Assembly: GCA_025999335.1 (NCBI GenBank)
Contig: AP024681.1
Span: 395,547-459,546 of the forward strand
DNA length: 64,000 nt
Source: Candidatus Parcubacteria bacterium
GTDB lineage: Bacteria > Patescibacteriota > Minisyncoccia > UBA6257 > HR35
Direction of reading: 5' to 3'
The position numbers and the translations under genes were made by a program. The notes beneath the pieces were generated by a model. The model was not told the DNA's origin. It did no database searches and worked only from the letters and a program-made list of their open reading frames with translations. Below, piece after piece: positions 23,602 through 59,421 of the stretch (positions are counted from its first letter, which is position 1; each line of letters starts with the position of its first letter).

Positions 23602-24825
23602 ATGAGTGATTATCATCAACAAGGATTTTCTTTAATAGAAATTTTACTTGTTATTATTATAATTTCCGTTTTATCAGGTATATTTTTTTTCTTCTTTAAT
23701 TATTCTGAAATTAATCGCATTAATAGAGATGTTCAGCGTTTAAACGATTTGTCAGTTTTAAGGTTTGTTATTGACAATCTAAACTTAGATGCTCTCGATG
23801 ATTTAGAAAATAATATTTATTTATCTTTACCGGACACAACTTCTTCTTGCGCGAATTATAATTTAAACACTATTTATTCGCCTTTTGCCTATAAATGTCA
23901 GCCGGCTGCTAATTTAAGGAATACGGATTCTTCAGGATGGTTGCCAATTAATATGCAGTCGCAATCTATTGTTGGCATAAATTCTTTGCCTCTTGATCCT
24001 TTGAATAATGAACAATACTTTTATGCTTTTCAGGTTAAAGATAAAAAATATAAATTATCAGCAAGATTAGAATCAAGTTCTAAGGGAGCCGAGATGGTTT
24101 ATGATGGTGGCAGTAATTTAACTTTATATGAAGTTGGTAGTGGTCTTAATTTTGCGTCAGTTCACGACGGTTTAGTTGGTGCTTGGCATTTTGACGAACA
24201 AAGCACATCTACTCTTTTAGATTCTTCTTTATATAATAATAGTGGTTTTAGTAAAAGCGGAAGTGTTAATTTTGATTTGCATACGACTTCAACATGTAAA
24301 ATTGGTTATTGTTTACGCTTCGATGGTGTTGATGACTATGCTTTAATTTCTAATTCTTCAGTGTTTAATTTTAGCAATAAAGGCTTTACACTTTTAGCTT
24401 GGATTAAGATTGAAAATTTAAATGCTTCCAGCGAACATTTTATTATTAGTCGTTATAATTGGAGTAATGGGTCTGGTTATGGTATGCAGGTCACTAATAC
24501 AGGTAAAATTAGATGTGATTTTAATGGTTCTTCTGGTTATTTTTTGTCAAACGAATCTTATGTACAGCCTAATAATTGGTATTTAATTGGTTGTGTTTAC
24601 GATGGACAATCTTTAAAAATATTTGTTAACGGTAAAGAGAAGGAAGCATCTTCTCGTTCTAATTTGATTAATGCTATTAATTCTAATATTTATATTGGCA
24701 CGCCTGCAGATGCCGTAGGTTCTGATAATTTTTCTTTTCAAGGAATGATTGACGAGGTTTATATTTATAACCGTCCCTTAAATGAACAAGAAATTAATTT
24801 AATTTATCAATTTAGACCTAATTAG
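23602..24825 (+). CDS. type IV pilin-like (pseudopilin) protein with a C-terminal LamG/concanavalin-like domain
   Basis: Prepilin motif QQGFSLIEILLVIIIISVLSG (G^FxLxE cleavage/methylation site). C-terminal ...GMIDEVYIYNRPLNEQEI... is typical of LamG-domain ends. Confidence 0.6.
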   Translation: MSDYHQQGFSLIEILLVIIIISVLSGIFFFFFNYSEINRINRDVQRLNDLSVLRFVIDNLNLDALDDLENNIYLSLPDTTSSCANYNLNTIYSPFAYKCQPAANLRNTDSSGWLPINMQSQSIVGINSLPLDPLNNEQYFYAFQVKDKKYKLSARLESSSKGAEMVYDGGSNLTLYEVGSGLNFASVHDGLVGAWHFDEQSTSTLLDSSLYNNSGFSKSGSVNFDLHTTSTCKIGYCLRFDGVDDYALISNSSVFNFSNKGFTLLAWIKIENLNASSEHFIISRYNWSNGSGYGMQVTNTGKIRCDFNGSSGYFLSNESYVQPNNWYLIGCVYDGQSLKIFVNGKEKEASSRSNLINAINSNIYIGTPADAVGSDNFSFQGMIDEVYIYNRPLNEQEINLIYQFRPN

Positions 24826-33380: not shown

Positions 33381-33803
33381 ATGAAATTTAATTTTTTTAA
33401 AAAAATTTGGGGTAAGAAAGATAAAGATCAGGAAAAGCAGGCAACAACCAAAGATGTCGCTCAAGAATCTAAAAGCTCCGCTACGGAAATTACTGCGGAA
33501 GCTAAAGAGCCATTATTAGAATATAATGCTGGCGATTTAAAAATAATTCCTTTAATTACCGAAAAAACATCTAATTTAGCAGCTCGTTATAATCAATATA
33601 CTTTTATTGTCGATACCAATGTCAATAGACAAGAAGCTAAAAAAGCAATAGAAAAAATTTTTAAAGTTCAAGTTACTAAGGTAAGCATTGTTAATTATAA
33701 AGAAAGAATTCGTGGGGCAACAAGAATAAAAAGTCGGAGGAAAAGTTTTAAAAAAGTTATTGCCACTCTTAAACCCGGTCAAAAGATACCTCTTTTTGAA
33801 TAA
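33381..33803 (+). CDS. rplW: 50S ribosomal protein L23 with a Lys-rich N-terminal extension of about 45 aa
   Basis: ...LKIIPLITEKTSNLAARYNQYTFIVDTNVNRQEAKKAIEKIFKVQVTKVSIVNYKER... Confidence 0.85.
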   Translation: MKFNFFKKIWGKKDKDQEKQATTKDVAQESKSSATEITAEAKEPLLEYNAGDLKIIPLITEKTSNLAARYNQYTFIVDTNVNRQEAKKAIEKIFKVQVTKVSIVNYKERIRGATRIKSRRKSFKKVIATLKPGQKIPLFE

Positions 33804-33850
33804 ACTTTACAACTAATTAATATTCTCTTATTTTTCCACAAATCATTTCA

Positions 33851-33879
33851 TTGACTTTTGTTATTTTGTAGATTATAAT
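33851..33879 (+). promoter_or_regulatory. sigma70-like promoter at the start of the cassette inserted in the S10 operon
   Basis: TTGACT at 33851-33856, 17-nt spacer, TATAAT at 33874-33879. Lies 7 nt upstream of the ORF starting at 33886. Confidence 0.4.
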
Positions 33880-33885
33880 TTAAAT

Positions 33886-34347
33886 ATGCTTGGAAAAAGG
33901 CATTTATTGTATGTTTTTATAGTTTTAGCAATGATTGTTGTTGTTGGCGGAGTGTTTTATTTTTTAGAATTAGAACGAAAAAAAGCAAGAGAAGCTCCGC
34001 CAATGCCCACAACGACATCGCCAACAATTTCTGTGCCGACAACAACTATAGAACAATATAAGTTAAAGACTGAGCAAATAGAGACGCTTCAATCTTTAAG
34101 AGAAGAACATTTAAAGCAAAAAGAAGAAACACTGAAAGGTTTAACGCCGCAGCAACGAGCAAAAGTTGAAATTCAAGAAAAGCAAGAGCAACATAACGCT
34201 TTACAAAAAAAGAGAGAAGAATTTCTTAAGAAAGAAGCTGCGCGTAATAAAGGTAAAACAACTAAACAAATTGCTCAAGAATCATTTCAAGAAAAACAAC
34301 GACAATATAATGAATTACAAAATTTACGAAATTTACTTGGTCAATGA
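33886..34347 (+). CDS. membrane-anchored coiled-coil protein (hypothetical)
   Basis: 153 aa. Transmembrane helix LLYVFIVLAMIVVVGGVFYF, Pro/Thr linker, then charged heptad-like K/E/Q-rich region. Confidence 0.4.
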   Translation: MLGKRHLLYVFIVLAMIVVVGGVFYFLELERKKAREAPPMPTTTSPTISVPTTTIEQYKLKTEQIETLQSLREEHLKQKEETLKGLTPQQRAKVEIQEKQEQHNALQKKREEFLKKEAARNKGKTTKQIAQESFQEKQRQYNELQNLRNLLGQ

Positions 34348-34390
34348 TTTTTTAGGTCATCATAATTAAATTTTATATATGGTTTCATAA

Positions 34391-37300
34391 ATGAGAAGTT
34401 TCTTTGAAAAAAAGTTAGCACTTTTGAGGTCGGCAGCTTTACTCTCTATTTTTGTTTTTTCTATAATCGGTATTAGTTACGCGTGGCAAAATCCTACAGT
34501 GTCTCCTCCTGGTGGTAACGTCGATGCTCCGGTAAATACCGGCACAAGCACTCAATATAAAGCAGGTGCGTTAGGTATTGGCGGTGTGTTTAATGCTTAT
34601 AACGATGCTTATTTTGGAATAACAACTGGAAGTGACACCACTACAGCTCCTAACGTTTCTATTACAGGTAATACGGTTGGGAGTGGTTATGAGTATAATC
34701 GTGATAAGAATTTTGTGCATTTGCAAACCGGTTCGATGCAAATAGATTCTCAATGTAGTTGCGATATTAGTACAACTGTTGCAGATTGTCCAGATTCTGT
34801 TTTTTATTCACCAGCAAATTTAGGCGATATATGTTTTGATTATTATAAAACGACAACGATATCAGGAGGAGCTTCTGTCATACAATATGGAAGATTTAAA
34901 TACGATCGTTCTGCTAATAAGGGATTATTAGGAGGCGCTCTTCAAGTGTACAATAAAGTGCTAATAGGGTCTTCTAAAAATCCTTCTTCCCATGTTCCTG
35001 GTATAGAATTTATAAAAACTTTTCAAAATACACCAGGAGAATCCAATCGATCTTTAGGATATTTTATATCGCTAATAAAAGAAGGTTTAGGTTTTTTCAC
35101 AAATAATAACACAACAACACCATCGGTTTTCTTCTCTCAAGATGGAACTCTAAGCATCAACACAACGACAGATAAGTCTATGTTAACTATCTGGGGTAAT
35201 GATAGAAATAATCTTTTAAGCATATTCGCTACTCCTTCTTATCCGTTTGTGTTTGTTGAAAACAGAAACGGTGATGGAGTTATGACTATTGGTAATACTA
35301 AATACATAAATTATATTCCTCTGTCATCTGGCTTGAATGTTATCGGCGATAATATTATTTTATCTAACTATAAATATCCTTCCGGCGGTGTCGGAGTAAT
35401 TTCAAAAAACGTTTTTGCTCATGCGACAAGAGATTATTTTTCAGATGTATCTCAGTACAATAATATAAAGAATCGTACGGGAGTAGGTTTTAGATGCGAT
35501 AGCAATGATGATATTAACATAGATCAGAAAAACTATTATAATGGCAGAGATGCCGATCCTAATTATAGCGTTGGTTCTGTATGTTATGATTTGTTTACTG
35601 AACAAGTATCTGGAGCTACTCTTTATGGTTTTAACGAATTTAAAGTTATAACCACTCAGGTTCCTTCCGGTCCTGTAGTTTGGCAGTACGAAGGTTTACC
35701 AAGTATTAATTTTATTGATTGGCGAAAATCATTATCTTCATTTTCATTATTTAACATAGGGGGTATTTTTAGAATTCAAGGTGGAACATCTACTATTTTA
35801 AGTATAGATGCAGAAAATAAAAATGTTGGCATAAATACTATTAGCATACCTACTACTGCTGCTTTATATGTTGTTGGCAATATTAAAGCAACTGGCGATG
35901 TTTGTGATGGAAATAGGTGTTTGAAAGATATTACTGGTGGTGGCGGTCCATCGTATTGGCATCTTAATGGCACTAATTTATATCCTACTGACATCAATTA
36001 TAAAGTTGGCATCGGCACAACCTCTCCTAATGCAATGTTAAGTATTAAAGGTACATCAACGAATAATTTATTCAGTATTTATACCTCTTCTTCTAACCCA
36101 GCTTTGTTTGTTGATAGTAGTGGTAAAATTGGCATAGGGACAACTACTCCTAATTATGTTGTTGATATTATTGGATTGAATTCCGTAGGCAGTTTAAGAT
36201 TAAGACATACATCTACCAATAGACATCTTTTATTAGGAGGCGATTGGCCATATATTGAAAGTGAGAATGCTGGAATTTTTATTAATTGGCACAATAATCA
36301 GCCAATATATATAAGACGAAACACTTTGTTTGTCGAGACAAATAAAGTTGGCATCGGCACAACTTCTCCTACTTCAATGTTAACTATTAGGGGTACATCA
36401 ACGAATAATTTATTCAGTATTTATACCTCTTCTTCTAACCCAGCTTTGTTTGTTGATAGTAGTGGTAAATCATTTTTTAAGATATTGCCATCTATATTTA
36501 ATGGCGATGATGCTAGTGTCGTTATTAGCAATAAAGCAACAATTTTTATTACCAATACTTCTAGCAATGGTTTAATCTTACAAAATACTTCTACTAGTTT
36601 TTATTTATTAACTCGTTCAGGAATGTGGACAAATGCAAATAGCAGTGACCCAGATACTTGCAGCGGGAATGATAGAGAGAATATTTTTAAAGAATGTTCA
36701 CAAGTTATTAATAGTTGTGTTGATGTAGCTAAGTTTGTAAATATAGATGAAAGTGGGGCTACTACTGAAGAATATTTAAAAAGTACTGTCACTTGTAGGC
36801 TAGTTAACGATCCTAATTCTAGATATCAATTTTCTGTTAACAAAGATAGTTTAGTTATTTCTTATGCTTCGTCTTCAAATAATAATTTATTATATATATT
36901 TAATAATGGTTCGGTTAGTTTAGGTGATAAAATTTATACCGATAGCATTCATTCACTTTATTATCGTGGTTCCTCAACTAGATCGTTTGAAGCAGATACT
37001 TTAATTGCGCGTAAAAGTATATTTGCTCTTAATGGTTATGTAGTAGCAAAAAAACTTTGTTTCGGTTTGGGAAATTGTCTAAGTGATTGGCCTAGTGGTG
37101 GGTCAGCATCTTATTGGAACGGAAGGAATGATCCGGATTATATTTATCCTATCGCCACTAGTTATAAAGTTGGCATTGGAACAACTTCGCCTGATGCGAT
37201 GTTAACTATCCGAGGCAATACCTCGTCTTCTCATTTACTCAGAGTTTATTCTGTTACAAGCACTATTCCTGCTTTGTTTATAAACAATAATAGTAACGTC

Positions 37301-38236
37301 GGCATTGGAACAACAAGTCCATCAGCAAAACTGCATGTCGTAGGAGGTGATGCTGTATTTAGTCATAGAATAGGCATCAGCACAACTTCTCCTAATGCAA
37401 TGTTAACTATTAGAGGTACATCAACGAATAATTTATTTAGTGTTTATGCTTCTAATTCAGATCAAGTTTTGACTATTAATTATCGAGGTGACATAAATAT
37501 TGGCGGTGGTAAATTTTTTATCAACTACCTTGGTAATGTAGGCATAGGGACAATTATTCCCGGGGTAGCATTAGATGTTTTGGGAGACATAAAATCTAGT
37601 GCAACAATAACAGCAGCAGTAGTATCATCGTCAAAAATATGCTTAGCTGGAACTTGTCGAACTACTTGGCCAAGTGGTAGTGTAGGTAATATTAGCGGGA
37701 GTGGAAACAGTGGTTATATTGCTAAATTCAATGATACAAACTCGATTACAAATTCTGTGATTTATGAACAATCTTCTAATATCGGCATTGGAACAACAAA
37801 TCCATTAGCAAAATTGCATGTTGACGGAGGTGGAGGTAAGGTTGTATTTACTAATAGTAACGTCGGCATTGGAACAACAAATCCATTAGTAAAGTTAGAG
37901 GTTAGCGGTGATGCTAAGTTTATTGGCAATGTTAGCGTTTCTGGTTATGTTGAAGCTGATATGATAAAACAAAAATTTTGTTTAAATTCTTCATGTACTT
38001 CCTTTCGACAATCAACTGCTATAAGAGGTATATATGATGTTAGTGGATCAGGTGGTAGTGGTACGGTTTTATACTGTCGTCCTAATGATAAAGTTATATC
38101 TGCTTTTATGGCTGGCTATGGAGGAAATGATAATTTTGGATGGGAGATAGTAATAAATGATTTGCAAGAAGGAGTTAAATTTTATCCGGAGGTGAATGCT
38201 ACGAATTTAAGAGTTAGATGCTTAAAACTTCAATAA
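34391..38236 (+). CDS. giant (1281 aa) secreted/surface repeat protein with tail-fibre-like (V)GIGTT(S/N)P..(M/K)L.(I/V).G repeats
   Basis: N-terminal signal/anchor LLSIFVFSIIGISYA. At least 8 copies of the GIGTTSP/GIGTTNP motif. Near-identical intragenic DNA repeats. Gly/Ser/Thr/Asn-rich and Cys-poor except at the C-terminal end. Confidence 0.5.
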   Translation: MRSFFEKKLALLRSAALLSIFVFSIIGISYAWQNPTVSPPGGNVDAPVNTGTSTQYKAGALGIGGVFNAYNDAYFGITTGSDTTTAPNVSITGNTVGSGYEYNRDKNFVHLQTGSMQIDSQCSCDISTTVADCPDSVFYSPANLGDICFDYYKTTTISGGASVIQYGRFKYDRSANKGLLGGALQVYNKVLIGSSKNPSSHVPGIEFIKTFQNTPGESNRSLGYFISLIKEGLGFFTNNNTTTPSVFFSQDGTLSINTTTDKSMLTIWGNDRNNLLSIFATPSYPFVFVENRNGDGVMTIGNTKYINYIPLSSGLNVIGDNIILSNYKYPSGGVGVISKNVFAHATRDYFSDVSQYNNIKNRTGVGFRCDSNDDINIDQKNYYNGRDADPNYSVGSVCYDLFTEQVSGATLYGFNEFKVITTQVPSGPVVWQYEGLPSINFIDWRKSLSSFSLFNIGGIFRIQGGTSTILSIDAENKNVGINTISIPTTAALYVVGNIKATGDVCDGNRCLKDITGGGGPSYWHLNGTNLYPTDINYKVGIGTTSPNAMLSIKGTSTNNLFSIYTSSSNPALFVDSSGKIGIGTTTPNYVVDIIGLNSVGSLRLRHTSTNRHLLLGGDWPYIESENAGIFINWHNNQPIYIRRNTLFVETNKVGIGTTSPTSMLTIRGTSTNNLFSIYTSSSNPALFVDSSGKSFFKILPSIFNGDDASVVISNKATIFITNTSSNGLILQNTSTSFYLLTRSGMWTNANSSDPDTCSGNDRENIFKECSQVINSCVDVAKFVNIDESGATTEEYLKSTVTCRLVNDPNSRYQFSVNKDSLVISYASSSNNNLLYIFNNGSVSLGDKIYTDSIHSLYYRGSSTRSFEADTLIARKSIFALNGYVVAKKLCFGLGNCLSDWPSGGSASYWNGRNDPDYIYPIATSYKVGIGTTSPDAMLTIRGNTSSSHLLRVYSVTSTIPALFINNNSNVGIGTTSPSAKLHVVGGDAVFSHRIGISTTSPNAMLTIRGTSTNNLFSVYASNSDQVLTINYRGDINIGGGKFFINYLGNVGIGTIIPGVALDVLGDIKSSATITAAVVSSSKICLAGTCRTTWPSGSVGNISGSGNSGYIAKFNDTNSITNSVIYEQSSNIGIGTTNPLAKLHVDGGGGKVVFTNSNVGIGTTNPLVKLEVSGDAKFIGNVSVSGYVEADMIKQKFCLNSSCTSFRQSTAIRGIYDVSGSGGSGTVLYCRPNDKVISAFMAGYGGNDNFGWEIVINDLQEGVKFYPEVNATNLRVRCLKLQ
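36005..36127 (+). repeat. intragenic direct repeat copy 1 (123 bp) within the giant repeat-protein gene
   Basis: Near-identical to 36347-36469. A 78-bp core (36050-36127) is 100% identical to 36392-36469. Confidence 0.85.
36347..36469 (+). repeat. intragenic direct repeat copy 2 (123 bp), 342 bp (114 codons, in frame) downstream of copy 1
   Basis: gttggcatcggcacaac[t/c]tctcct...ggtacatcaacgaataatttattcagtatttatacctcttcttctaacccagctttgtttgttgatagtagtggtaaa. A third, more diverged copy lies near 37368-37470. Confidence 0.85.
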
Positions 38237-38299
38237 TAGGATATTATAAGATTATTCAGTGAAATTCAGTTAAATTTAGTATATTATAAATTTTTTAAA

Positions 38300-40624
38300 A
38301 TGAACTTACAAAATAAATTATATTTAGTTAAAGCGGGTTTGGTGCTAGCGATTTTAGTTTTTTTAATATTTTTGTTTAATTATTTTGTTAAAGCTCAAGA
38401 ATCATCAGGATCTCCATCTTTTAATGTTTCTGGTTGGGCGTGGACTAATATGGCTTCAGGTTCATCTCCTATTTATGATCATGATCCAACTATTGGTTGG
38501 GTGGTTTTTAGTTGTAATACAAAGATTAAAAAGAATAACGACACAGAAGAACCAATTAAAATCTGTAGCGACGGTCTTGATAAAGGTAAGATATGCAACA
38601 TTGGCGTAGCTACCGGAATCCCACGAGTTGATTGTAGAAATTATGATGGTAGCATTAATAATGGCTTTTGTCAAGATGCTTGCAGAGTTTCTCGTTTTGG
38701 AGTTGATATTAATACTTCAACTGGATGTATAACTGGTGATGCTTGGAGCTCTAATATTGGTTGGATTAGTTTTAACAAAAATTCTTCTACTTTTATAAAT
38801 GGGATTTCAAGATTCCCCAATGGTTACAATCCAGCAAGCAGCACTTGTCCCAATTCTTTAGCTGTTTTAGAATCAACAAGCACGCTTTTTGTTACTACCA
38901 CAAAAATATTAGGTTGGGCAAGAGCTGTTGCGCCTGCTATTTTTCAGGATAGAGAGGGCAGATTTTATGATCCTCATCCTAACTCAGGAGGATGGGATGG
39001 TTGGATTAGCTTTAATAAATTCACCGGCACTGTTGATTATGGTGTATACATTGATAAAAATGGTGATTTTCACGGTTGGGCATGGAGTGATGATAAAATT
39101 GGTTGGTTGTCGTTTAATAGCGAAGATACTAGATCAACTATTCCTTATAAGGTTTCTTTAAGTAGTTCAACAATTTCAAGAAATTTAGCGCTTACTTTAA
39201 CTCCTAATCCTAATCCAGTGACTGTTGGTCAAACAACTACTTTTAGTTACAGCACTTCAGGAACTGTAAATTGTAATATTACTGAATTTTGGTCAGGCGT
39301 GCCTTGTGGTTTAAGTATTACTACATCTTCTTGTAACTATGTGCCAACAGCAACTGGTAATTATGCTTATTACATCGCAGCAACAGCAACTTGCGCTGGA
39401 ATTACATTTTTTGCTACTAGTGGTACGACTTTAGTTGTTACTGATGCTCCAATTGCGACTTTAAATATTAATAGCTATCCTTCTGGTGTTTCCTTTAATA
39501 GTTCCTTTGGTAGTTTCACTACTCCTCGTACCGTAACCTCAACAGCAACTATTACTGCTACTTTAATAGCGTCATCATCGGTTAACAAAAATGGAACTAA
39601 TTATGATTTTGTTGAGTGGGTTAACTGCAATTCTGTAAGTGGTTCTAATGGTGAAACTTGTAATGTAAGCGTAAATCCAGGAGAGACTATAAGTATTACA
39701 GCTAATTATAGGGCGCGTGGTGTAGCTACATTAAATATTATTAGCTCGCCTATTAGCGTTTCTATTAATGATGCTTTAATAAACGGATCTAGCGCAAACT
39801 TTACTACTCCTCATACCGTAACATCAACAGCAACTATTACTGCTACTTTAACAGCACCACTATCGGTCATAAGTGGAACTAATTATGATTTTGTTAAGTG
39901 GGTTGACTGCGATTCTGTAAGTGGTTCTAATGGTGAAACTTGTAATGTAACCGTTGCTCCAGGTGCAATAACTACTGTCAGTGCTAATTACAACACATCT
40001 TCACCTCCATCTCCACCTACAACAGGTAGTACTACTTTAAAAATTGTTACTCCTGCATGTAATGGCGAGATAGCAACTACATCTCATTTAAGTAGATATG
40101 CAGCTAGGAGTGACCCTCAAGGCGGAGAATATTTATCAGCTTTCAACACGACCTCACTTATAACTGAATATAATGCGTTTTTGAGTAGTAGAGATGCAAA
40201 CAGAACTCAATGTCCTTATATTGTTATAAATGATAAAAGTTCTTCGTTTAAATTATTTATAGATGTTGAAAATGTTAATACTTCTACTACTTATACTATT
40301 AAAATTAAAAATAACACATCTGGAAAGGAGGGTTCATTATTAGATGAGACGAGATTTAGTCAAAGCAATGAATTAAAATATATAAGCATAACTGATATTA
40401 GCGCTGATGGAATAATGAGCGAATTCGCAGGTCTTAATACTGTTTCATTAGAAGAATTTAGGTCAAGAAATGTGGTGGCTACGTCATCTTTAAATATATA
40501 TGGATTGCGCGTAGGTGGCGATTCATGTTATTTAAGGAATCAACCTGAGAAAATTTCAAGCAGTATCTATAGGTCTTTGTGTAATTTCTGGATTAATGAG
40601 ACAGGAATGATTAGACAGCAATGA
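38300..40624 (+). CDS. secreted Cys-containing repeat protein with three GW(I/L)SFN motifs and a tandemly duplicated ~90-aa Thr-rich domain
   Basis: Signal/anchor GLVLAILVFLIFLFNYFV. Motifs GWISFNKNSS, GWISFNKFTG, GWLSFNSEDT. Duplicated ...FTTP(R/H)TVTSTATITATL...GTNYDFV(E/K)WV(N/D)C(N/D)SVSGSNGETCNV(S/T)V.PG...(T/S)ANY... at about 39.45-40.0 kb. Confidence 0.45.
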   Translation: MNLQNKLYLVKAGLVLAILVFLIFLFNYFVKAQESSGSPSFNVSGWAWTNMASGSSPIYDHDPTIGWVVFSCNTKIKKNNDTEEPIKICSDGLDKGKICNIGVATGIPRVDCRNYDGSINNGFCQDACRVSRFGVDINTSTGCITGDAWSSNIGWISFNKNSSTFINGISRFPNGYNPASSTCPNSLAVLESTSTLFVTTTKILGWARAVAPAIFQDREGRFYDPHPNSGGWDGWISFNKFTGTVDYGVYIDKNGDFHGWAWSDDKIGWLSFNSEDTRSTIPYKVSLSSSTISRNLALTLTPNPNPVTVGQTTTFSYSTSGTVNCNITEFWSGVPCGLSITTSSCNYVPTATGNYAYYIAATATCAGITFFATSGTTLVVTDAPIATLNINSYPSGVSFNSSFGSFTTPRTVTSTATITATLIASSSVNKNGTNYDFVEWVNCNSVSGSNGETCNVSVNPGETISITANYRARGVATLNIISSPISVSINDALINGSSANFTTPHTVTSTATITATLTAPLSVISGTNYDFVKWVDCDSVSGSNGETCNVTVAPGAITTVSANYNTSSPPSPPTTGSTTLKIVTPACNGEIATTSHLSRYAARSDPQGGEYLSAFNTTSLITEYNAFLSSRDANRTQCPYIVINDKSSSFKLFIDVENVNTSTTYTIKIKNNTSGKEGSLLDETRFSQSNELKYISITDISADGIMSEFAGLNTVSLEEFRSRNVVATSSLNIYGLRVGGDSCYLRNQPEKISSSIYRSLCNFWINETGMIRQQ

Positions 40625-40712: not shown

Positions 40713-41549
40713 ATGTCAATAAAAACAATAAAATCTCGTAGTTCAGGAAAGATTATAAGAGTTTTGGTTGATAAGTCAGCGATAATAACGGCGCAAAAAC
40801 CGTACAAGCCTTTAACTGTTGCTTTAAAAAAACGAACTGCTCGCAATTCTCAGGGAAGAATTACTGTTCGTTTTAGAAGTAATCCTTATCATAGACGTTT
40901 ATATCGTATTATAGATTTTTCCCGTTTAGATAAAAAAGGTATTGTAGGCACGGTAGAAACTATTGAATATGATCCTAATCGAAGCGCTTTTATTATGTTA
41001 GTAAGTTACTTGGATGGTGATAAAAGATATCATTTAGCGCCAGAAAACATCAAAGTAGGAGATAAAATTGTTTGCGACGAGAATACTTCTTTGCAGATTG
41101 GCAATCGAATGGCTTTAAAAAATATTAATTCAGGAACAGAGATTTTTGAATTAGAGTTAGTTCCGGGTTCAGGTGGTAAGTTGATTAGATCAGCGGGTTC
41201 TTTTGGGGTGATGATGGGAATTGAAAAAAATTATGCTTTAATTAAAATGCCATCAGGTGAAATTCGTAAGATTCACAAAGAATGTTATGCAACTTTAGGA
41301 CGCGTGTCTAATTCAGGTCATCGTTTAGAGCAATGGGGTAAAGCAGGTCGTAGTCGTTGGCAGGGTAGAAGACCTAAGGTAAGAGGTTCAGCAATGAATC
41401 CGAGGGATCATCCTTATGGCGGTGGTGAAGGTAAGGCAACTCGTGGTACGCGCAAACCTAAAGATAAATGGGGTAATATTACTGGCGGTAGAAAAACAAG
41501 AAACGTTAAAAAACCTTATTCAAAGCTTATAATTAAACGTAGAAAGTAA
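40713..41549 (+). CDS. rplB: 50S ribosomal protein L2
   Basis: 278 aa. ...GRNSQGRITVRFRSNPYHRRLYRIIDF... and ...HPYGGGEGKATRGTRKP... Confidence 0.95.
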   Translation: MSIKTIKSRSSGKIIRVLVDKSAIITAQKPYKPLTVALKKRTARNSQGRITVRFRSNPYHRRLYRIIDFSRLDKKGIVGTVETIEYDPNRSAFIMLVSYLDGDKRYHLAPENIKVGDKIVCDENTSLQIGNRMALKNINSGTEIFELELVPGSGGKLIRSAGSFGVMMGIEKNYALIKMPSGEIRKIHKECYATLGRVSNSGHRLEQWGKAGRSRWQGRRPKVRGSAMNPRDHPYGGGEGKATRGTRKPKDKWGNITGGRKTRNVKKPYSKLIIKRRK

Positions 41550-51481: not shown

Positions 51482-52462
51482 TTAGCTCCAATGTGATTTG
51501 ATATACGATGTAATTTCGCTAACTTTTAAGGGTACAGTTGTATTATTGATTCTAACAAAAAATAATTCTTCGTTATCAAATTTTACATATACCGGTTTAT
51601 CACTTGGAAAAACTTTAATAATAGCTATTTCCTTATCTTCAATTTTTTGAAAAAAAATTTTGACATATTTATGATATTGAATGCCGATATAATGTTTAAA
51701 GATGTTGAGAAAATGATTTTGAAAACTGTCGCTGTTTTTTTTAGGTAATGTTTGATAGTCGGCATCTAGACCAGTTACTCTTTGTTCATCGTCAACGCCA
51801 ATAATTAAAAATCCTCCTTGGCTATTTAAAAAACCAGCGATAGTTTTGATAATTGCTTTTTCTAAATTTTTATTTACCTTGCCTTCTTTAAAATCCCATC
51901 GCATAGATTGTTTAAATTCAATATTTTCACTTTCTTTGCGTTGTAAAATGCTTGCTAAACTTTCGCCTTGGTAAAGTTCATTGATGTATTTTCTTTTAAT
52001 GTTGTTAATAATTATTTTTTTTATTTGTTTTGGATTATAAATATTGTCTAAGATTAAAGTTTGATTATCTTGGGAATTGTAAATAATAATATTGCCAACA
52101 TTAAAAAATTTGTCAAGGGGAGTATGAGATAATTTGACTTCTATTTTTTCATTAAGATATATTATTTGTCTTTTTTTGGCAATAAAATTTTTTTCATAAA
52201 TAATAACATCGGGATAAATAGTTATAGTTTCCAAATGCCATTTTATAAAAGCAGCGACGATTAAGATTATTTCCGCTAAGACTATAAATAATAATTTAGC
52301 TAATTCGTATGAGATTATTTGAGTTAAATTAAGAGCTTTATATATTTCTCCATAATTTGCTAAAATTGCAGCTATAAAATATAAAAAACTGCCTAAAAAT
52401 TGAATAATAATTAGGTTTTTGATAATTACAATAGGATGTTTTTTTATAACTATATTTTTCAT
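51482..52462 (-). CDS. membrane protein with an N-terminal bacterial PH (bPH_2/YdbS-like) domain and a C-terminal AlbA_2 (Schlafen-like putative DNA-binding) domain
   Basis: Two transmembrane helices plus ...DVIIYEKNFIAKKRQIIYLNEKIEV... bPH-like core. C-terminal ...ESENIEFKQSMRWDF...AGFLNSQGGFLIIGVDDEQRVTGL... matches the AlbA_2 motif. Confidence 0.5.
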   Translation of the reverse strand: MKNIVIKKHPIVIIKNLIIIQFLGSFLYFIAAILANYGEIYKALNLTQIISYELAKLLFIVLAEIILIVAAFIKWHLETITIYPDVIIYEKNFIAKKRQIIYLNEKIEVKLSHTPLDKFFNVGNIIIYNSQDNQTLILDNIYNPKQIKKIIINNIKRKYINELYQGESLASILQRKESENIEFKQSMRWDFKEGKVNKNLEKAIIKTIAGFLNSQGGFLIIGVDDEQRVTGLDADYQTLPKKNSDSFQNHFLNIFKHYIGIQYHKYVKIFFQKIEDKEIAIIKVFPSDKPVYVKFDNEELFFVRINNTTVPLKVSEITSYIKSHWS

Positions 52463-52616: not shown

Positions 52617-55600
52617 ATGTTTGCGTCAAAAAACTTTTCCAAATTTAAGTATTTAGAAATTAATGATTTGTTAAAAGATATTAAGGAATCTTTTAATAAT
52701 TTTCTGTTTTTAAAATTTGAAAATATTATTAAAGAATATTTTCCTATTTATGATTATTCTGAAAAGGAATTGAGATTAGATTTTAAAGGTTTGGAGTTAG
52801 GTTCACCAAAAATAACTGAAGATGAAGCTAAATACTATGGCATAAATTTTGATATCCCTTTACGTTTTAATTTTGTTTTGCATAATCTTGTTACTGGCGA
52901 TGCTAAAGAGCAAAAGATATTTTTTGGCGACATTCCTGCAATGACTAAAAGCGGTACTTTTATTATTAATGGCATTGAAAGAATTATCGTTAATCAATTA
53001 TTAAGATCTCCGGGCATTTATTTCTCTTATCTTATGTATGGTGATGCTAAAAAATTTGGTGCTAAAGTTATGCCTCATCAAGGAGCGTGGCTTGAATTTC
53101 AAACTGAAGCAACCGATATTATTCAAGTAAGAATTGATCGTCATAAAAAAGTTCCGGTGACTATTTTATTAAAAGCTTTTGGCTTTGAAAGCAATGACGA
53201 GATTTTAAATTTTTTTGGTAATGATAATTTTATCGTTAATACTTTGAAAAAAGATAATACTTTAAATAGAGAAGAAGCTTTATTAGAAATTCATCGTAAA
53301 TTAAAACCTTTTGAACCTAATACCTACGACAACGCTCTTTTTTATTTTGAAAATACATTTTTAAATCCAGCTCGTTATAATCTTTCTCCTATAGGGAGAT
53401 ATCATGTTAATAGACGTTTGAACAATGATTCGCAGTCTCCTTGTTTAGAACGTCGCGATATTGAGTTAATTATTAAAGAAATTATTCGTTTAAACAATGA
53501 TCAAAATGCTGAAAGAGATGATATTGATGCTTTGTATAATCGAAGAGTGCGTGATGTTGCTGAATTGTTAGAAAATCAAACGCGAATTGGTTTATTAAGA
53601 TTAAAAAAAGATATTCAAGACAGAATGAGTGCTGTTGATAAATCTCAAGCTTTATTGCCTTCACAGGTTGTTTATCCAAGAAAATTTATTAATTCTATAA
53701 TTGAATTTTTTAATATCTCGCCATTGTCACAGATTTTAGATCAAGTTAATCCTTTGTCAAGCATAGAACATAAAAGAAAATTAACCGGTGGTGGTCCTGG
53801 CGGATTAACCAAAGAAAGAGCTACTTTAGAAGCAAGAGATGTTCATCCTTCTCATTATGGTAGAATATGTCCAATTCAAACTCCTGCTGAAGGACAAAGC
53901 GTTGGTATTAGTTTAAGTCGTGCTTTATATGCAAGAAGAAACGAGTACGGTTTTTTGGAAACTCCTTATTATAAAGTTGTTAATGGCAAAATTAGCAATG
54001 AAATTGTTTGGCTTACAGCTGATCAAGAAGCTAAAGAAATTATTGCCTCACGATTTGTTAATATAGACAACAAAGGAAATATTTTAGACGAAGAAGTTGA
54101 GGCAAGAGTATACGGAGAGCCAAGACTTGTTTCTAAAGATGAAGTTACCTTAATAGATGTTTCTCCTTTTCAAATCTTTTCATTAGCAACTTCTTTAATT
54201 CCTTTTGTTGAACATGATGATGCTAACAGAGCCCAGATGGGTTCTAAAATGCAAAATCAAGCAGTTACTTTGGTTAAGCCTGATATTCCTTTAGTATCTA
54301 CAGGTTTAGAAGAAAAAACAGCAAGAGAATCTGGATTAGTTATCATTGCTGAACACGACGGGGAAGTAGTTTATGTTGATGCTGATTGCATTATTTTAAA
54401 ATGCAAAACTAGCAAAGGTTATGAAAAGGTTGTTTATAATTTACGCAAGTTTCAAAGAACTTCAGCTTTTACTTGCTATAATCAAAAACCAATTGTTCGC
54501 TTAGGTCAAAAAGTGAAGAAAGGAGATGTTTTAACCGATGGTCCTGCAATTAAAAACGGCACTTTAGCATTAGGACAAAATGTGTTGATGGCATTTTTAC
54601 CGTGGCATGGTTATAATTATGAAGATGCTATTATTGTTTCGGAAAGATTGTTAAAAGACGATCTTTTTTCTTCTATTTATTTAGAAGAGTTTTCGGTTGA
54701 TGTTTTAGACACAAGATTAGGACCAGAAATTACAACTTATGATATTCCTGAAGTGCCTGAAAATAAATTAAGAAATTTAGATATTGATGGTTATATTCAA
54801 GTTGGTACTTATGTTAAACCGGGCGATATTCTTGTTGGTAAAATAACGCCAAAAAGAGAAGTAGAAATCACTCCTGAAGAAAAATTATTAAAAGCTATTT
54901 TTGGAGAAAAAGCGGAAGAGAAAAAAGATTCGTCTTTATATTTAGAACCTGGCAAAGAAGGAAGAGTGATTAAGGTTAAGGTTTTGAATCGTAGTAAGGG
55001 CGAAATTACTGAGCCAGGAGTTTTGAAAAGAGTTTTTGTTGAAATAGCTAAATTGCGCAAAATTCAAATCGGCGATAAATTAGCTAATCGACATGGTAAT
55101 AAGGGTGTTATTTCGGTGATTTTGAAAGAGGAAGATATGCCATTTTTGCCTGATGGTCGACGTTTAGATATAGTTCTTAATACTACAGGTATTATTTCAA
55201 GAATGAATATAGGACAGATTTTAGAAGCGCATTTAGGTTTAGCTGCCCATAAGTTACAATATAGAGCTATTGTTCCTCCTTTCTCTGGTTTTACGGCTGA
55301 TGAGGTAAAAGCAGAATTAAGGAAAGCAAACTTACCCGAAGATGGTAAAACAATTTTATACGATGGTTTAACTGGTGAACCTTTTAATCAAAGAGTTACT
55401 GTAGGTTATATGACTATTATGAAATTAGTACATATGGTTGAAGATAAAATTCATGCGCGTTCTATTGGTCCTTATTCTTTAATTACTCAACAACCTCTTG
55501 GTGGTAGAGCGCAATTTGGTGGGCAAAGATTAGGAGAAATGGAAATGTGGGCTTTAGCAGCTCATGGCGCTACAGAAATTTTACAAGAAATGCTTACTAT

Positions 55601-55832
55601 CAAATCTGACGATATTGTTGGTCGTAATTTAGCTTATGAGCAAATTATTAAAGGAGAAAAAGTTGAAATAACTTATTATTCTACTATTTTTGAAGTATTA
55701 TTGAACGAATTGAAAGCTTTAGGTTTTAATGTAGAAATTCAATATTATCCTAAAGATAAAGATAAACCAACCTTACCTTTGGGTGAATTAGGTCAAACAA
55801 CTGAAATACCCCAAGAACAACATAATGAATAG
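52617..55832 (+). CDS. rpoB: DNA-directed RNA polymerase subunit beta
   Basis: 1071 aa. ...GTFIINGIERIIVNQLLRSPG..., ...HPSHYGRICPIQTPAEGQSVG..., ...NRHGNKGVIS..., ...GGQRLGEMEMWAL... Confidence 0.95.
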   Translation: MFASKNFSKFKYLEINDLLKDIKESFNNFLFLKFENIIKEYFPIYDYSEKELRLDFKGLELGSPKITEDEAKYYGINFDIPLRFNFVLHNLVTGDAKEQKIFFGDIPAMTKSGTFIINGIERIIVNQLLRSPGIYFSYLMYGDAKKFGAKVMPHQGAWLEFQTEATDIIQVRIDRHKKVPVTILLKAFGFESNDEILNFFGNDNFIVNTLKKDNTLNREEALLEIHRKLKPFEPNTYDNALFYFENTFLNPARYNLSPIGRYHVNRRLNNDSQSPCLERRDIELIIKEIIRLNNDQNAERDDIDALYNRRVRDVAELLENQTRIGLLRLKKDIQDRMSAVDKSQALLPSQVVYPRKFINSIIEFFNISPLSQILDQVNPLSSIEHKRKLTGGGPGGLTKERATLEARDVHPSHYGRICPIQTPAEGQSVGISLSRALYARRNEYGFLETPYYKVVNGKISNEIVWLTADQEAKEIIASRFVNIDNKGNILDEEVEARVYGEPRLVSKDEVTLIDVSPFQIFSLATSLIPFVEHDDANRAQMGSKMQNQAVTLVKPDIPLVSTGLEEKTARESGLVIIAEHDGEVVYVDADCIILKCKTSKGYEKVVYNLRKFQRTSAFTCYNQKPIVRLGQKVKKGDVLTDGPAIKNGTLALGQNVLMAFLPWHGYNYEDAIIVSERLLKDDLFSSIYLEEFSVDVLDTRLGPEITTYDIPEVPENKLRNLDIDGYIQVGTYVKPGDILVGKITPKREVEITPEEKLLKAIFGEKAEEKKDSSLYLEPGKEGRVIKVKVLNRSKGEITEPGVLKRVFVEIAKLRKIQIGDKLANRHGNKGVISVILKEEDMPFLPDGRRLDIVLNTTGIISRMNIGQILEAHLGLAAHKLQYRAIVPPFSGFTADEVKAELRKANLPEDGKTILYDGLTGEPFNQRVTVGYMTIMKLVHMVEDKIHARSIGPYSLITQQPLGGRAQFGGQRLGEMEMWALAAHGATEILQEMLTIKSDDIVGRNLAYEQIIKGEKVEITYYSTIFEVLLNELKALGFNVEIQYYPKDKDKPTLPLGELGQTTEIPQEQHNE

Positions 55833-58800: not shown

Positions 58801-59421
58801 ACAAAAAATAATAAAATTATAAATTTGAAAATTTCTAAAAAGTTTAAACTATTAGTTAAAAAAGGAGATGCAGTTGTTAAAGGACAAGTTTTAAATGAAG
58901 GTATTGAAGATCCTAAAAAAATTTACAGGACAAGAGGTAAAATGGCTGCTTTTCAATATATGTTAAGTGAAGTTAAGCGTATTTATAATGAACAAGGAGC
59001 TTCAATTCATAACAAATATCTTGAGATTGTTATTAAAAAGATGTTTTCTCGGGTAAGGATAACTGATCCAGGAGATAGCGAATTTATTATTAACGAAGTT
59101 GTAGAAAAAGATATGTTTTGGGAAGAGAATTTAAAGTTAAAACGAATGGGTAAAAAACCAGCAAAAGGAATTTTAATGTTAATGGGTATTAAGAATATAG
59201 CTTCCAGCATCTATAGTTTTCTATCAGCTGCTTCTTTTCAAGAAACTTCTCGCGCTTTAGTAAGAGCAGCTTTAGAATGTCGCGAAGATACTTTACGAGG
59301 TGTTAAGGAAAATTTTATTATTGGTCGTAAACCAACAATAGGTAATGAATTTAGAAAATGGCTCAAAAAAAAGGATCAGGTACAGTTAAGTCAGGAAGGG
59401 ATTCTATCAGCAAAAGATTAG
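55825..59421 (+). CDS. rpoC: DNA-directed RNA polymerase subunit beta'
   Basis: 1198 aa. Zn finger ...CACGKYK...CERCGVE..., ...NADFDGDQM..., and trigger-loop region. Confidence 0.95.

What the first reader, a model, noticed from the sequence alone, without database searches (positions are those of the whole stretch)
34391..38236. Giant 1281-aa tail-fibre-like repeat protein with near-identical in-frame intragenic DNA repeats, a possible variability hotspot
The protein carries at least 8 copies of a (V)GIGTT(S/N)P..(M/K)L.(I/V).G motif. This pattern is typical of phage tail-fibre and large surface-adhesin repeat families. Two 123-bp segments (36005-36127 and 36347-36469) are more than 92% identical, with a 78-bp core 100% identical. 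They lie exactly 342 bp (114 codons) apart, so homologous recombination between them would delete or duplicate an in-frame repeat unit. More diverged copies occur near 37160-37330, 37368-37470 and 37782-37900. Such repeat architecture in a secreted protein suggests length or antigenic variation of a surface fibre, possibly for host attachment in an episymbiotic lifestyle.
Basis: seen in the sequence. Interest (0 to 1): 0.6.

Follow-up and report, generated by a model that had tools for sequence, protein, structure and literature searches.

The report
Hypervariable mosaic surface-fibre gene (Parcubacteria)
A tiny CPR (Parcubacteria) bacterium carries, wedged inside its main ribosomal-protein operon, a phage-tail-fibre-like surface fibre gene whose blocks differ by 25-45% between strains that are otherwise 99-100% identical. 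This marks it as a recombination-shuffled cell-surface recognition gene, not just a repeat-rich protein.

Summary
ORF 34391-38236 encodes 1281 aa. Two 128-nt segments are 95% identical and 342 bp apart, with a 78-bp identical core. There are 9 clear and several degenerate VGIGTTSPxxxL motifs.

The protein is identical to a hypothetical protein of a Candidatus Parcubacteria MAG (KatS3mg097_427). Its repeat region is homologous to the trimeric beta-helix shaft of Bdellovibrio "mosaic adhesive trimer" (MAT) fibres: profile vs PDB gives 8OND at E=1e-10, and all four hits are MAT fibres. The motif is their "capping loop". The protein has no S74 chaperone domain. Its N-terminal signal/anchor module is found on about 2,400 protein clusters; every named member examined is from Parcubacteria.

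The main result comes from two other genomes. They are 99-100% identical in about 10 kb of flanking DNA, but the fibre gene is only 84% and 76% identical. Blocks of 100% identity alternate with blocks of 51-78% identity (dS about 1), and the three alleles are different chimeras. Breakpoints fall in conserved motif-coding DNA. The variable zone (34569-39865) runs into the next gene.

The near-identical repeats show concerted evolution, not unit loss or gain. I found no DGR, invertase switch or donor cassette. The three-gene module sits between L23 and L2 and is conserved in a sister species. The trimeric fold and any host-binding function remain inferred.

The parts
33381..33803 (+). Ribosomal protein L23 gene, the upstream boundary of the inserted module.
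   Evidence: Pfam Ribosomal_L23 at 1.5e-22. It is 99.1% nt identical in L001 and L002.
33851..33879 (+). Promoter-like site TTGACT-17-TATAAT. Its -10 box ends 6 nt before the p153 ATG, which is positioned for a leaderless transcript.
   Evidence: The site matches 11 of 12 consensus positions, and the sequence was read directly. Promoter-like hits in the region are not above chance overall (47 found vs 46 expected), so this is only suggestive.
33886..34347 (+). p153, a conserved small protein with an N-terminal TM helix and a K/E-rich coiled-coil-like tail. It is the first gene of the inserted module.
   Evidence: ORF. No family was found. It is 99.3% aa identical in both relatives.
34391..38236 (+). 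Fibre gene of 1281 aa, identical to KatS3mg097_427 of a Candidatus Parcubacteria MAG.
   Evidence: No Pfam or NCBIfam family matches. PHROG tail-fibre families hit. PDB hits are MAT fibres.
34391..34568 (+). Conserved N-terminal signal/anchor module (aa 1-59): basic n-region, hydrophobic helix, SYA|WQNPTVSPPGGNVDAPVNTG..QYKAG.
   Evidence: It is 100% identical in the three alleles. 2,418 cluster representatives share it, always at the N-terminus. Named members are Parcubacteria.
34569..35146 (+). Variable block V1 (aa 60-252), a Cys-containing knob-like domain.
   Evidence: W vs L1=L2 is 56-68% nt identical, while L1 and L2 are 100% identical to each other. dS is 1.4 and dN/dS is 0.39.
35147..35940 (+). 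Conserved block C2 (aa 253-516). It begins with a degenerate capping loop (TLSINTTTDKSMLTIWG) and ends with CDGNRCLKDITG.
   Evidence: W and L2 share a 794-bp run of 100% identity, and L1 has a single difference at 35581. dS is 0-0.006. Apart from the three alleles, no homologue covering blocks V1 or C2 was found; the two hits of the 523-aa search, P0031 and P0032, match only the N-terminal anchor, aa ~4-99. The search behind this listed neither P0001, P0002 nor P0003.
35941..37297 (+). Variable block V2 (aa 517-969): a shaft segment carrying repeats r1 and r2, a Cys-rich knob (aa ~757-802), and the CFGLGNC..WPSGG staple.
   Evidence: W vs L1=L2 is 59-88% nt identical. dS is 0.9-1.2 and dN/dS is 0.24-0.29.
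36000..36127 (+). Intragenic repeat r1, encoding KVGIGTTSPNAMLSIKGTSTNNLFSIYTSSSNPALFVDSSGK.
36342..36469 (+). Intragenic repeat r2. It is 95% identical to r1 with a 78-bp identical core and lies 342 bp downstream.
   Evidence: The orthologous pair in L1/L2 is 83-89% identical at 363 bp spacing.
37365..37492 (+). Intragenic repeat r3, 78% identical to r1.
35825..37900 (+). Zone holding the 10 capping-loop motif copies (V/I-G-I-G/N/S-T-T-x-P-x-x-x-L). The motif G starts at nt 35828, 36008, 36131, 36350, 37172, 37301, 37373, 37541, 37784 and 37865.
   Evidence: The motif corresponds to the MAT capping loop described in PMC10769870. These are the only segments with pLDDT of 70-78 in the AF2 model.
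37298..38236 (+). Variable block V3, fibre part (aa 970-1281): the distal shaft plus an 86-aa Cys-containing tip domain (37976-38233).
   Evidence: W and L1 are 100% identical here, while L2 is 51-78% identical with module-level indels. dS is 0.55-1.0 and dN/dS is 0.5. L1 has unique sequence at 37225-37297.
38300..40624 (+). p774, a TM-anchored partner protein with GWxW..GWISFN repeats and an internal duplication. Its N-terminal two-thirds (to ~39865) belongs to the variable zone, and the C-terminal third is conserved.
   Evidence: ORF. W vs L2 is 68-98% identical up to 39865 and 100% after that. No Pfam, PDB or PADLOC assignment was found.
40713..41549 (+). Ribosomal protein L2 gene, the downstream boundary of the inserted module.
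   Evidence: Pfam Ribosomal_L2_N and Ribosomal_L2_C match. It is 100% nt identical in L002.

Best explanation
The gene encodes an exported, N-terminally anchored, modular surface fibre of a Parcubacteria (CPR) bacterium. Its shaft is built from the same capping-loop beta-helix repeat units as Bdellovibrio MAT fibres and phage tail fibres or tailspikes, so it is probably a homotrimer. The shaft is punctuated by C-x4-5-C..W 'staples', carries Cys-rich knobs, and ends in a small tip domain.

The gene, together with the first two-thirds of the next gene (p774), is a strain-level hypervariable locus. Anciently diverged allelic cassettes (dS ~1) are swapped by homologous recombination. Crossovers fall in the few DNA stretches that stay conserved between alleles: the N-terminal anchor, the capping-loop motifs and the staple/GGxSYW linker. 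The result is different chimeras in otherwise near-clonal genomes. Within an allele, the repeated motif DNA is also homogenised by gene conversion, which explains the near-identical 128-nt pair.

Shown:
- the repeats and the motif;
- homology to MAT shafts;
- the mosaic divergence and its breakpoints;
- concerted evolution of the repeats;
- the conserved position between L23 and L2.

Inferred:
- trimeric fold and surface exposure;
- DNA uptake by natural transformation as the route of exchange;
- that the selective agent is recognition, either of host or partner cells by the fibre or of the fibre by phages or host defences;
- co-transcription with the ribosomal operon.
For: Identity and fold:
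- PHROG tail-fibre families hit at 2.8e-14 and 1.1e-10.
- phmmer vs PDB hits only Bd2133 and Bd3182.
- A 3-allele profile vs PDB gives 8OND at 9.8e-11, 8OJN at 4.7e-6, and 8OML/8ON4 at 3e-4. All are MAT fibres.
- The paper defines the capping-loop motif and the 'conserved end plus variable tip' logic.

Family:
- The anchor module occurs in 2,418 cluster representatives from Parcubacteria.
- It carries S74 chaperone, collagen, Shufflon_N or LVIVD payloads.
- P0060 and P0046 have the same anchor, loops, Cys staple and variable-tip architecture.

Hypervariability:
- Flanking genes are 99-100% nt identical. The fibre gene is 84.3% and 76.5% identical, and p774 is 91%.
- dS is 0.9-1.4 in variable blocks and 0-0.006 in conserved blocks.
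- Control: 99.48% identity over 10.2 kb of upstream flank.
- L1 has unique sequence at its crossover, so it is not a simple chimera of W and L2.
- An independent Logan assembly of DRR290133 reproduces W at 100% across V1, C2 and the start of V2.

Concerted evolution is shown. Competence and homologous recombination in Patescibacteria are documented in PMC10633639.
Against: - There is no direct structural support. AF2 monomer models have pLDDT of 34 and 55, and the Foldseek hits to MAT fibres are not significant (E>=0.018, TM<=0.26).
- Only three alleles plus one partial allele from a sister species exist. Two of them may come from one study, so population-level claims rest on few genomes.
- MAGs and short-read contigs can be strain chimeras.
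- Mean dN/dS is 0.24-0.53, so positive selection is not demonstrated.
- The donors of the cassettes were not found.
- Only 64 kb of the 680-kb genome was inspected for donor cassettes or a reverse transcriptase.
- The function (adhesion, and to what) is untested.
Confidence: 0.62

Rival explanations
1. Unequal homologous recombination between the near-identical 123-128-bp repeats deletes or duplicates the 114-codon unit, and the resulting fibre-length variation is the main form of variability.
For: The repeats are real, in frame and have a 78-bp identical core. Alleles differ in loop-module arrangement and length in the 3' block: 1281 vs 1313 aa, with internal duplications specific to L2.
Against: All three alleles retain both r1 and r2 and the spacer between them, which is alignable at 63-64% identity. 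Two alleles have exactly the same length. Most of the difference is substitution at dS ~1. The repeat similarity pattern indicates gene conversion rather than unit loss or gain.
Confidence: 0.12
2. The locus undergoes programmed intragenomic antigenic variation. Silent donor cassettes elsewhere in the same genome are copied into the expressed gene by gene conversion, as in Neisseria pilE/pilS, Mycoplasma MgPa or Borrelia vlsE.
For: The alleles are mosaic, cassette-like and have breakpoints at conserved motifs. Gene conversion is evidently active within the gene.
Against: No paralogous or donor sequence lies elsewhere in the 64-kb window at either DNA or protein level. No other protein of the same MAG appears among the homologues in a 5.8-billion-protein search. 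dS ~1 between cassettes, combined with identical flanks, fits imported alleles just as well.
Confidence: 0.08
3. The mosaic is an assembly artefact, arising because MAGs or contigs are stitched together from co-occurring strains or species.
For: All sequences come from metagenome assemblies. Logan contigs break inside the locus at 36079 and ~39741-39940.
Against: Those breaks coincide with internal repeats, namely the r1 core and the p774 duplication. The ORFs are intact in all alleles. An independent assembly of DRR290133 matches W at 100% over 33392-36079. L1 and L2, from different records, are identical over 2.8 kb of the variable gene. L1 has unique sequence at its crossover. Even if L1 were chimeric, W and L2 alone establish the block pattern.
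Confidence: 0.05
4. Diversification is by a diversity-generating retroelement or some other targeted hypermutation, or by a shufflon- or invertase-type switch.
For: DGRs are common in CPR (own knowledge). One family member (P0046) carries a Shufflon_N domain match.
Against: No reverse transcriptase was found among the ORFs of at least 100 aa that were scanned. The r1/r2 mismatches are not adenine-specific. The differences span kilobases with indels and saturated dS. There are no significant inverted repeats and no inverted alternative 3' cassettes. The only recombinase is a XerC/D-like gene 20 kb away.
Confidence: 0.02
5. The fibre is a domesticated or resident phage or tailocin tail fibre, i.e. 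a prophage remnant rather than a cellular adhesin.
For: PHROG tail-fibre hits, and a weak tblastn hit to the distal tail fibre of Thermus phage phiFa (29%, 9e-4).
Against: The gene lies between L23 and L2 with no phage genes in the window. The synteny is conserved in a sister species. The protein has a Sec-type signal/anchor shared by thousands of Parcubacteria proteins. GC content is close to that of the surroundings.
Confidence: 0.03

Closest known systems
Bdellovibrio bacteriovorus MAT (mosaic adhesive trimer) fibres, non-S74 subgroup (Bd2133, Bd1334; PDB 8OND, 8OML; Caulton et al. 2024, PMC10769870)
   Same: The repeated capping-loop motif is the same (VG-x-G/N-T-x-x-P-x-x-x-L-x-V). There is significant sequence homology to the solved beta-helix shaft (E=1e-10). 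The protein is about 1,000 aa or more. One end is conserved and the distal parts are variable or mosaic. There is no C-terminal S74 chaperone. The presumed role is surface recognition by a bacterium that lives on other bacteria.
   Different: - The N-terminal module is different: a Parcubacteria-type signal/anchor.
- Cys 'staples' and internal Cys-rich knobs interrupt the shaft.
- The tip domain is unrelated.
- Diversity here is allelic, with one locus shuffled between strains, rather than 21 paralogues in one genome.
- The host organism is a monoderm-like CPR bacterium.
- The gene lies in the S10 ribosomal operon.
- Trimerisation was not shown here.
Phage tail fibres and tailspikes with beta-helical shafts (K1F endosialidase, T5 L-shaped fibre pb1; PHROG 9942/18345/3269)
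   Same: The shaft repeat motif is shared, with PHROG hits at 1e-14 to 4e-7. Both are mosaic and modular, with recombination at conserved junctions (own knowledge for phages). Short members of the same Parcubacteria family do carry the Peptidase_S74 chaperone (P0044).
   Different: This is a cellular gene with a Sec signal, sitting in a housekeeping operon. It has no phage context, no S74 domain, and only one weak match among 50,697 phage records.
Cassette-type antigenic variation systems (Neisseria pilE/pilS, Mycoplasma genitalium MgPa, Borrelia vlsE) and R64 PilV shufflon
   Same: A surface appendage gene is made of conserved segments alternating with variable cassettes. Recombination occurs at conserved junction sequences.
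   Different: No silent cassettes, invertible segments or dedicated recombinase were found. The variants are seen between strains, not (yet) within a clone.
Strain-level hypervariable 'metagenomic islands' encoding surface structures (O-antigen or S-layer loci; constant-diversity model). This comparison rests on own knowledge.
   Same: Divergence is extreme and confined to a surface-structure locus in otherwise near-identical genomes, which is compatible with frequency-dependent selection by phages or partners.
   Different: Here the island is a single fibre gene plus part of its neighbour. The mosaicism is intragenic and the locus lies inside a ribosomal-protein operon rather than in a flexible genomic island.

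Membership tests
MAT (mosaic adhesive trimer) fibre superfamily | Repeated capping-loop motif V-G-(x)-G/N-pi-x-x-P-x-x-x-L along the shaft | tested here: met
   There are 10 copies. They align to the Bd2133 and Bd3182 loops. The motif is defined in PMC10769870.
MAT (mosaic adhesive trimer) fibre superfamily | Sequence homology to experimentally solved MAT beta-helix shaft | tested here: met
   The profile of 3 alleles gives 8OND at E=9.8e-11, 8OJN at 4.7e-6, and 8OML/8ON4 at 3e-4. No non-MAT chain was hit.
MAT (mosaic adhesive trimer) fibre superfamily | Intertwined homotrimeric beta-helix or beta-prism fold | tested here: inconclusive
   Only monomer AF2 was available, giving pLDDT of 34 and 55. 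The top 12 Foldseek hits are all MAT fibres, but E>=0.018 and TM<=0.26.
MAT (mosaic adhesive trimer) fibre superfamily | Conserved N-terminal presentation domain with variable distal or C-terminal domains | tested here: inconclusive
   The logic is met: aa 1-59 are invariant and widely shared, while distal blocks and the tip vary. However, the N-terminal module is a Parcubacteria-type anchor, and it was not compared with the Bdellovibrio N-domain. V1, close to the N-terminus, is also variable.
MAT S74 subgroup / phage S74 tailspikes | C-terminal Peptidase_S74 intramolecular chaperone | tested here: not met
   The window protein has no Pfam hit at E<=0.1. S74 is present in a short family member, P0044.
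MAT (mosaic adhesive trimer) fibre superfamily | Display on the cell surface and binding of target-cell glycans | not testable with these tools
   Only an N-terminal Sec-type signal/anchor can be inferred from the sequence.
Phage or prophage tail fibre | Located in a phage structural gene cluster or prophage | tested here: not met
   The neighbours are L23 and L2, and the window is housekeeping. There is one weak phage hit.
DGR variable protein | Nearby reverse transcriptase and a TR/VR pair differing at adenines | tested here: not met
   No reverse transcriptase was found in the scanned ORFs. Only 3 of the 6 r1/r2 mismatches are at A, and both copies are coding. Divergence spans kilobases with indels. 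The rest of the genome was not seen.
Shufflon / invertase switch | Inverted repeat recombination sites flanking alternative 3' segments, plus an Rci-type recombinase | tested here: not met
   Only short, AT-rich, imperfect inverted repeats are present. There are no inverted paralogous segments.
pilE/pilS-type cassette gene conversion | Silent donor cassettes in the same genome | tested here: inconclusive
   None are present in the 64-kb window, and no same-genome paralogue appears in the protein database. About 616 kb of the genome was not inspected at DNA level.

The most novel reading that the evidence does not exclude
Parcubacteria may possess their own large family of MAT-like trimeric fibres, defined by a dedicated N-terminal anchor module (~2,400 clusters; S74, collagen, propeller and other payloads). 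In this lineage one long member, with its partner p774, would be the strain-specific determinant of which host cell is bound, or of which phage can bind. It would be kept hyper-diverse by transformation-mediated cassette shuffling at conserved capping-loop DNA, and expressed from within the S10 ribosomal operon so that fibre supply is coupled to growth. That would give CPR biology a concrete, testable host-range locus.
Probability: 0.3. Interest if true: 0.75.

Novelty: new variant of a known kind. Interest (0 to 1): 0.58.

Why it matters
How ultrasmall CPR/Patescibacteria recognise their hosts is largely unknown outside type IV pili in Saccharibacteria.

This locus is a sequence-defined candidate recognition fibre related to the Bdellovibrio prey-recognition fibres. 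It shows the population-genetic signature expected of a specificity or evasion determinant: extreme, block-wise allelic divergence in near-clonal genomes.

It also shows how the conserved capping-loop DNA can double as a recombination substrate for module shuffling. And it flags an unusual, conserved insertion of surface-protein genes into the S10 ribosomal operon.

If confirmed, the locus could serve as a strain or host-range marker in metagenomes and as a target for binding studies.

Tried and rejected
- **AF2 monomer predictions.** I ran aa 880-1281 with 3 alleles (pLDDT 34) and aa 905-1200 with 22 repeat-segment homologues (pLDDT 55). Both are too poor to use, and the Foldseek result is not significant and not independent of sequence.
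- **More alleles.** Two JGI metagenome scans found nothing. The GTDB representative scan found only an unrelated 25% match. Exact-protein look-ups of L2, p153 and L4 gave only the known genomes plus short contigs.
- **Contig breaks as evidence of within-sample heterogeneity.** Rejected, because the breaks coincide with internal repeats.
- **Introgression from the sister species as the source of cassettes.** Rejected, because W and L2 are equally distant from it.
- **Donor cassettes or paralogues in the window.** None found.
- **Inverted repeats or a shufflon.** None found.
- **DGR.** No reverse transcriptase and no adenine bias.
- **Defence-system, Rfam and PDB assignments.** PADLOC, Rfam and PDB gave nothing for p153, p774 or the intergenic gaps.
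- **Ribosomal-operon position in distant relatives.** It does not recur for relatives sharing only the anchor or the repeats.
- **Homologues of the N-terminal 523 aa.** The search returned only two anchor-sharing proteins. For unclear reasons it did not list the three alleles again.

Full report
**1. Observation**

The ORF 34391-38236 (+) encodes 1281 aa. `repeat finder` gives family D1: 36000-36127 and 36342-36469 at 95% identity, 342 bp apart, with a third copy at 37365-37492 at 78%. The six r1/r2 mismatches lie between 36022 and 36049, so 36050-36127 and 36392-36469 are identical, a 78-bp core. There is no tandem array.

The motif G[IV][GSN]T occurs at aa 480, 540, 581, 654, 928, 971, 995, 1051, 1132 and 1159. 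More degenerate copies begin block C2 (aa ~254) and follow the anchor. A second punctuation, C-x4-5-C followed by W/GG, recurs at aa 505, 890, 1084 and 1197.

**2. Organism and genomic setting**

The window has about 30% GC. The protein is 100% identical to KatS3mg097_427 of a Candidatus Parcubacteria MAG, on a 680-kb contig.

The gene is the second of three non-ribosomal genes lying between L23 and L2 in the S10 ribosomal-protein operon:
- p153: TM helix plus coiled-coil-like tail.
- The fibre gene.
- p774: TM-anchored, with GWxW..GWISFN repeats.

No terminator-like site separates these genes. A near-consensus promoter-like site ends 6 nt before the p153 ATG, but such sites are not above chance in this AT-rich DNA.

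The same order occurs in two other records, L001 and L002. Contigs of a sister species, whose ribosomal-protein DNA is ~81% identical, carry fibre-3'-end, p774 homologue and L2 in the same order. More distant proteins sharing only the repeats or the anchor are not in ribosomal operons.

**3. What the protein is**

Pfam and NCBIfam find nothing. PHROGs hits tail-fibre families through the repeat region, at 2.8e-14, 1.1e-10 and 4.2e-7.

Against all PDB sequences, the only hits are Bdellovibrio bacteriovorus fibres. With a profile of the three alleles (aa 880-1281) the hits are:
- Bd2133 (8OND), E=9.8e-11
- Bd3182 (8OJN), E=4.7e-6
- Bd1334 (8OML and 8ON4), E=3e-4

Nothing else is hit.

Caulton et al. 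[quoted passage not shown] They are surface-displayed trimeric beta-helix or beta-prism fibres of about 1,000 aa. One end is conserved and the C-terminal tips are diverse. Subgroups exist with and without an S74 chaperone. The recurring 'capping loop' motif V-G-G/N-pi-x-x-P-x-x-x-L is shared with phage K1F and T5 fibres. The GIGTTSPxxxL motif here aligns to those loops. The window protein lacks S74.

Structure prediction could only be run on a single chain and was uninformative, with pLDDT of 34 and 55. Only the loops reached 70-78. Foldseek returned MAT fibres as its top 12 hits, but without significance. The trimeric fold is therefore inferred from homology, not shown.

**4. A Parcubacteria-wide anchor module**

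The first 59 aa are invariant among the alleles. An exhaustive HMMER search with aa 1-80 finds 2,418 cluster representatives at E<=1e-3, with 99 at E<=1e-10. The match is always at the extreme N-terminus, and the proteins are mostly 150-400 aa. The named members examined are Parcubacteria: Nomurabacteria, Yonathbacteria and the GW2011 groundwater MAGs.

The consensus is a hydrophobic segment followed by YAWTEPTxxPPxGNVxAPINVGxxxQYKxGALGIGG, running directly into a first GNVGIGT loop. 92 of 148 representatives carry the loop motif.

Payloads on this anchor include Peptidase_S74, collagen triple helix, Shufflon_N, LVIVD propellers and EPTP. Two other long members, P0060 and P0046, have the same layout of anchor, 8-9 loops, CIxGxCKxxW staples and an unrelated tip. 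The window protein is therefore a long, non-S74 member of a CPR family that parallels the MAT design. Apart from the three alleles, no homologue of blocks V1 and C2 was detected in that search, which did not re-list the three alleles.

**5. The key result: a strain-level mosaic hotspot**

Between the window (W) and L001/L002, the genes EF-Tu, S10, L3, L4, L23, p153, L2, S19, L22, S3 and L16 are 98.9-100% identical at DNA level. The fibre gene is 84.3% (L1) and 76.5% (L2) identical, and p774 is 91.1%. As a control, W vs L1 is 99.48% identical over 10.2 kb upstream.

The divergence is block-wise:

| Window coordinates | Block | Pattern |
|---|---|---|
| 34391-34568 | anchor | identical in all three |
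| 34569-35146 | V1 | W 56-68% vs L1=L2 |
| 35147-35940 | C2 | identical (794-bp run) |
| 35941-37297 | V2 | W 59-88% vs L1=L2 |
| ~37298-38443 | V3 | W=L1 at 100%, L2 51-78% with module-sized indels |
| 38460-39865 | p774 N-terminal part | W vs L2 68-98% |
| from 39866 | p774 C-terminal part onward | identical |

The three alleles are thus three different chimeras. Synonymous divergence is 0.9-1.4 in V1 and V2 and 0.55-1.0 in V3, against 0-0.006 in the conserved blocks. dN/dS is 0.24-0.53. Saturated dS next to dS=0 cannot come from local mutation. It indicates replacement by anciently diverged alleles through recombination.

All four breakpoints lie in sequence that is conserved across alleles and modules:
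- QYKAG|ALGIGG of the anchor.
- The start of the degenerate loop TLSINTTTDKSMLTIWG.
- Just after the staple, at CDGNRCLKDITG|GGGPSYW.
- At N|VGIGTTSP.

L1 carries about 70 bp of unique sequence at its crossover, plus scattered differences from L2, so it is not a simple assembly chimera of W and L2. The Logan assembly of DRR290133 independently reproduces W over 33392-36079.

The cassette donors were not found:
- not in the window;
- not among 5.8 billion proteins;
- not in JGI metagenomes or GTDB representatives;
- not in the sister species.

Natural competence with ComEC-dependent homologous recombination is documented for Patescibacteria, and com genes are conserved across CPR (PMC10633639). 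This gives a plausible route for exchange, which is inference.

**6. What the near-identical repeats are doing**

The orthologous pair exists in L1/L2 at 363-bp spacing and 83-89% identity. All W-vs-L1 comparisons of these copies are 77% identical. The spacer between the copies is alignable between alleles.

Copies within an allele are therefore more alike than orthologous copies between alleles. This is concerted evolution by intragenic gene conversion. No allele has lost or gained the 114-codon unit. Allele lengths are 1281, 1281 and 1313 aa. Module-level rearrangement is seen only in V3 of L2, which has a different loop arrangement, its own internal 84% duplicates, and no staple at aa 1084.

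**7. Alternatives examined**

- DGR: no reverse transcriptase among the 40 window proteins scanned against Pfam, no adenine bias, and the wrong scale of variation.
- Shufflon or invertase: no meaningful inverted repeats. The only recombinase is a XerC/D-like gene 20 kb away.
- Prophage: housekeeping context, and one weak phage hit (Thermus phage phiFa, 29%).
- Defence system: no PADLOC hit.
- Assembly artefact: addressed above. Contig ends at 36079 and ~39741-39940 are repeat-induced and were not used as evidence.

**8. Verdict**

The finding is real and more interesting than a repeat-rich ORF. It is a MAT-like or tail-fibre-like surface fibre gene of a Parcubacteria bacterium. Together with part of its neighbour, it forms a sharply bounded, recombination-shuffled hypervariable locus inside the S10 operon.

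It is best classed as a new variant of a known kind. The shaft is homologous to MAT and phage fibres. The anchor, the knob and staple architecture, the allelic mosaicism and the operon position are distinct.

Still unproven are the trimeric fold, surface exposure, what the fibre binds, the selective agent and the origin of the cassettes. Only three alleles are available.

Noticed in passing
window 33886-40624 (between L23 33381-33803 and L2 40713-41549); L002 3488-10314; L007-L010: Three non-ribosomal genes for membrane or surface proteins (p153, the fibre, p774) are inserted inside the S10 ribosomal-protein operon, with no terminator-like site between them. The arrangement is conserved in two near-identical genomes. 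In a sister species with ~81% identical ribosomal-protein DNA, at least the fibre-p774-L2 part is conserved.
   Followed up: partly
window 38300-39865 (p774) and 39515-39681 vs 39725-39916: The N-terminal two-thirds of p774 is also hypervariable (68-98% identity vs L2; a sister-species allele is 56% aa identical), while its C-terminal third is 100% conserved. It contains four GWxW..GWISFN-type repeats and an internal duplicated domain. It has no Pfam, PDB or PADLOC assignment.
   Followed up: partly
window 33851-33886: A near-consensus sigma-70-like promoter (TTGACT-17-TATAAT) ends 6 nt before the p153 ATG, and no Shine-Dalgarno sequence is visible. The inserted module may have its own leaderless transcript.
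   Followed up: no
proteins P0044-P0191; window aa 1-80 of the fibre: The N-terminal module (hydrophobic segment + YAWTEPTxxPPxGNVxAPINVGxxxQYKxGALGIGG) defines a family of ~2,400 clusters, and the named members examined are Parcubacteria. Proteins are mostly ~250 aa, with payloads as different as the Peptidase_S74 chaperone, collagen triple helix, LVIVD propellers, EPTP and Shufflon_N. No Pfam family matched it in the window protein or in the ten members scanned.
   Followed up: partly
L020 8001-11132 (P0060) and neighbours: A 1043-aa protein with the same anchor, loop and staple architecture lies inside a complete type IV pilus cluster (PilM, PilO, PilB, PilT, PilC, pilin, prepilin peptidase, minor pilins). 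This hints at a functional link between these fibres and type IV pili in some CPR.
   Followed up: no
window 23602-24825 (+) and 1221-2159 (-): The first is a type IV pilin-like protein (N_methyl motif) with a C-terminal Laminin_G_3/sialidase-like lectin domain. The second is a T4SS_pilin-like protein with a weak lysozyme-like domain. Both are further candidate cell-contact genes in the same window.
   Followed up: no
window 33381-33803 (L23): L23 is 140 aa, and the Pfam domain covers only residues 55-137. The first ~50 residues form a K/E/S/T-rich N-terminal extension.
   Followed up: no
window 51482-52462 (-): A gene with a bacterial PH domain plus a Schlafen AlbA_2 domain sits on the opposite strand between the ribosomal-protein/SecY/Adk cluster and the two large ORFs at 52617-59421, which are presumably rpoB and rpoC (not scanned).
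   Followed up: no
L017 end (= window 36079); L012-L015 starts (= window 39741-39940): Short-read Logan contigs from several runs terminate inside the r1 identical core and inside the internal duplication of p774. The intragenic repeats are long enough to break k-mer assemblies, so this locus will often be fragmented or missing in MAGs.
   Followed up: yes
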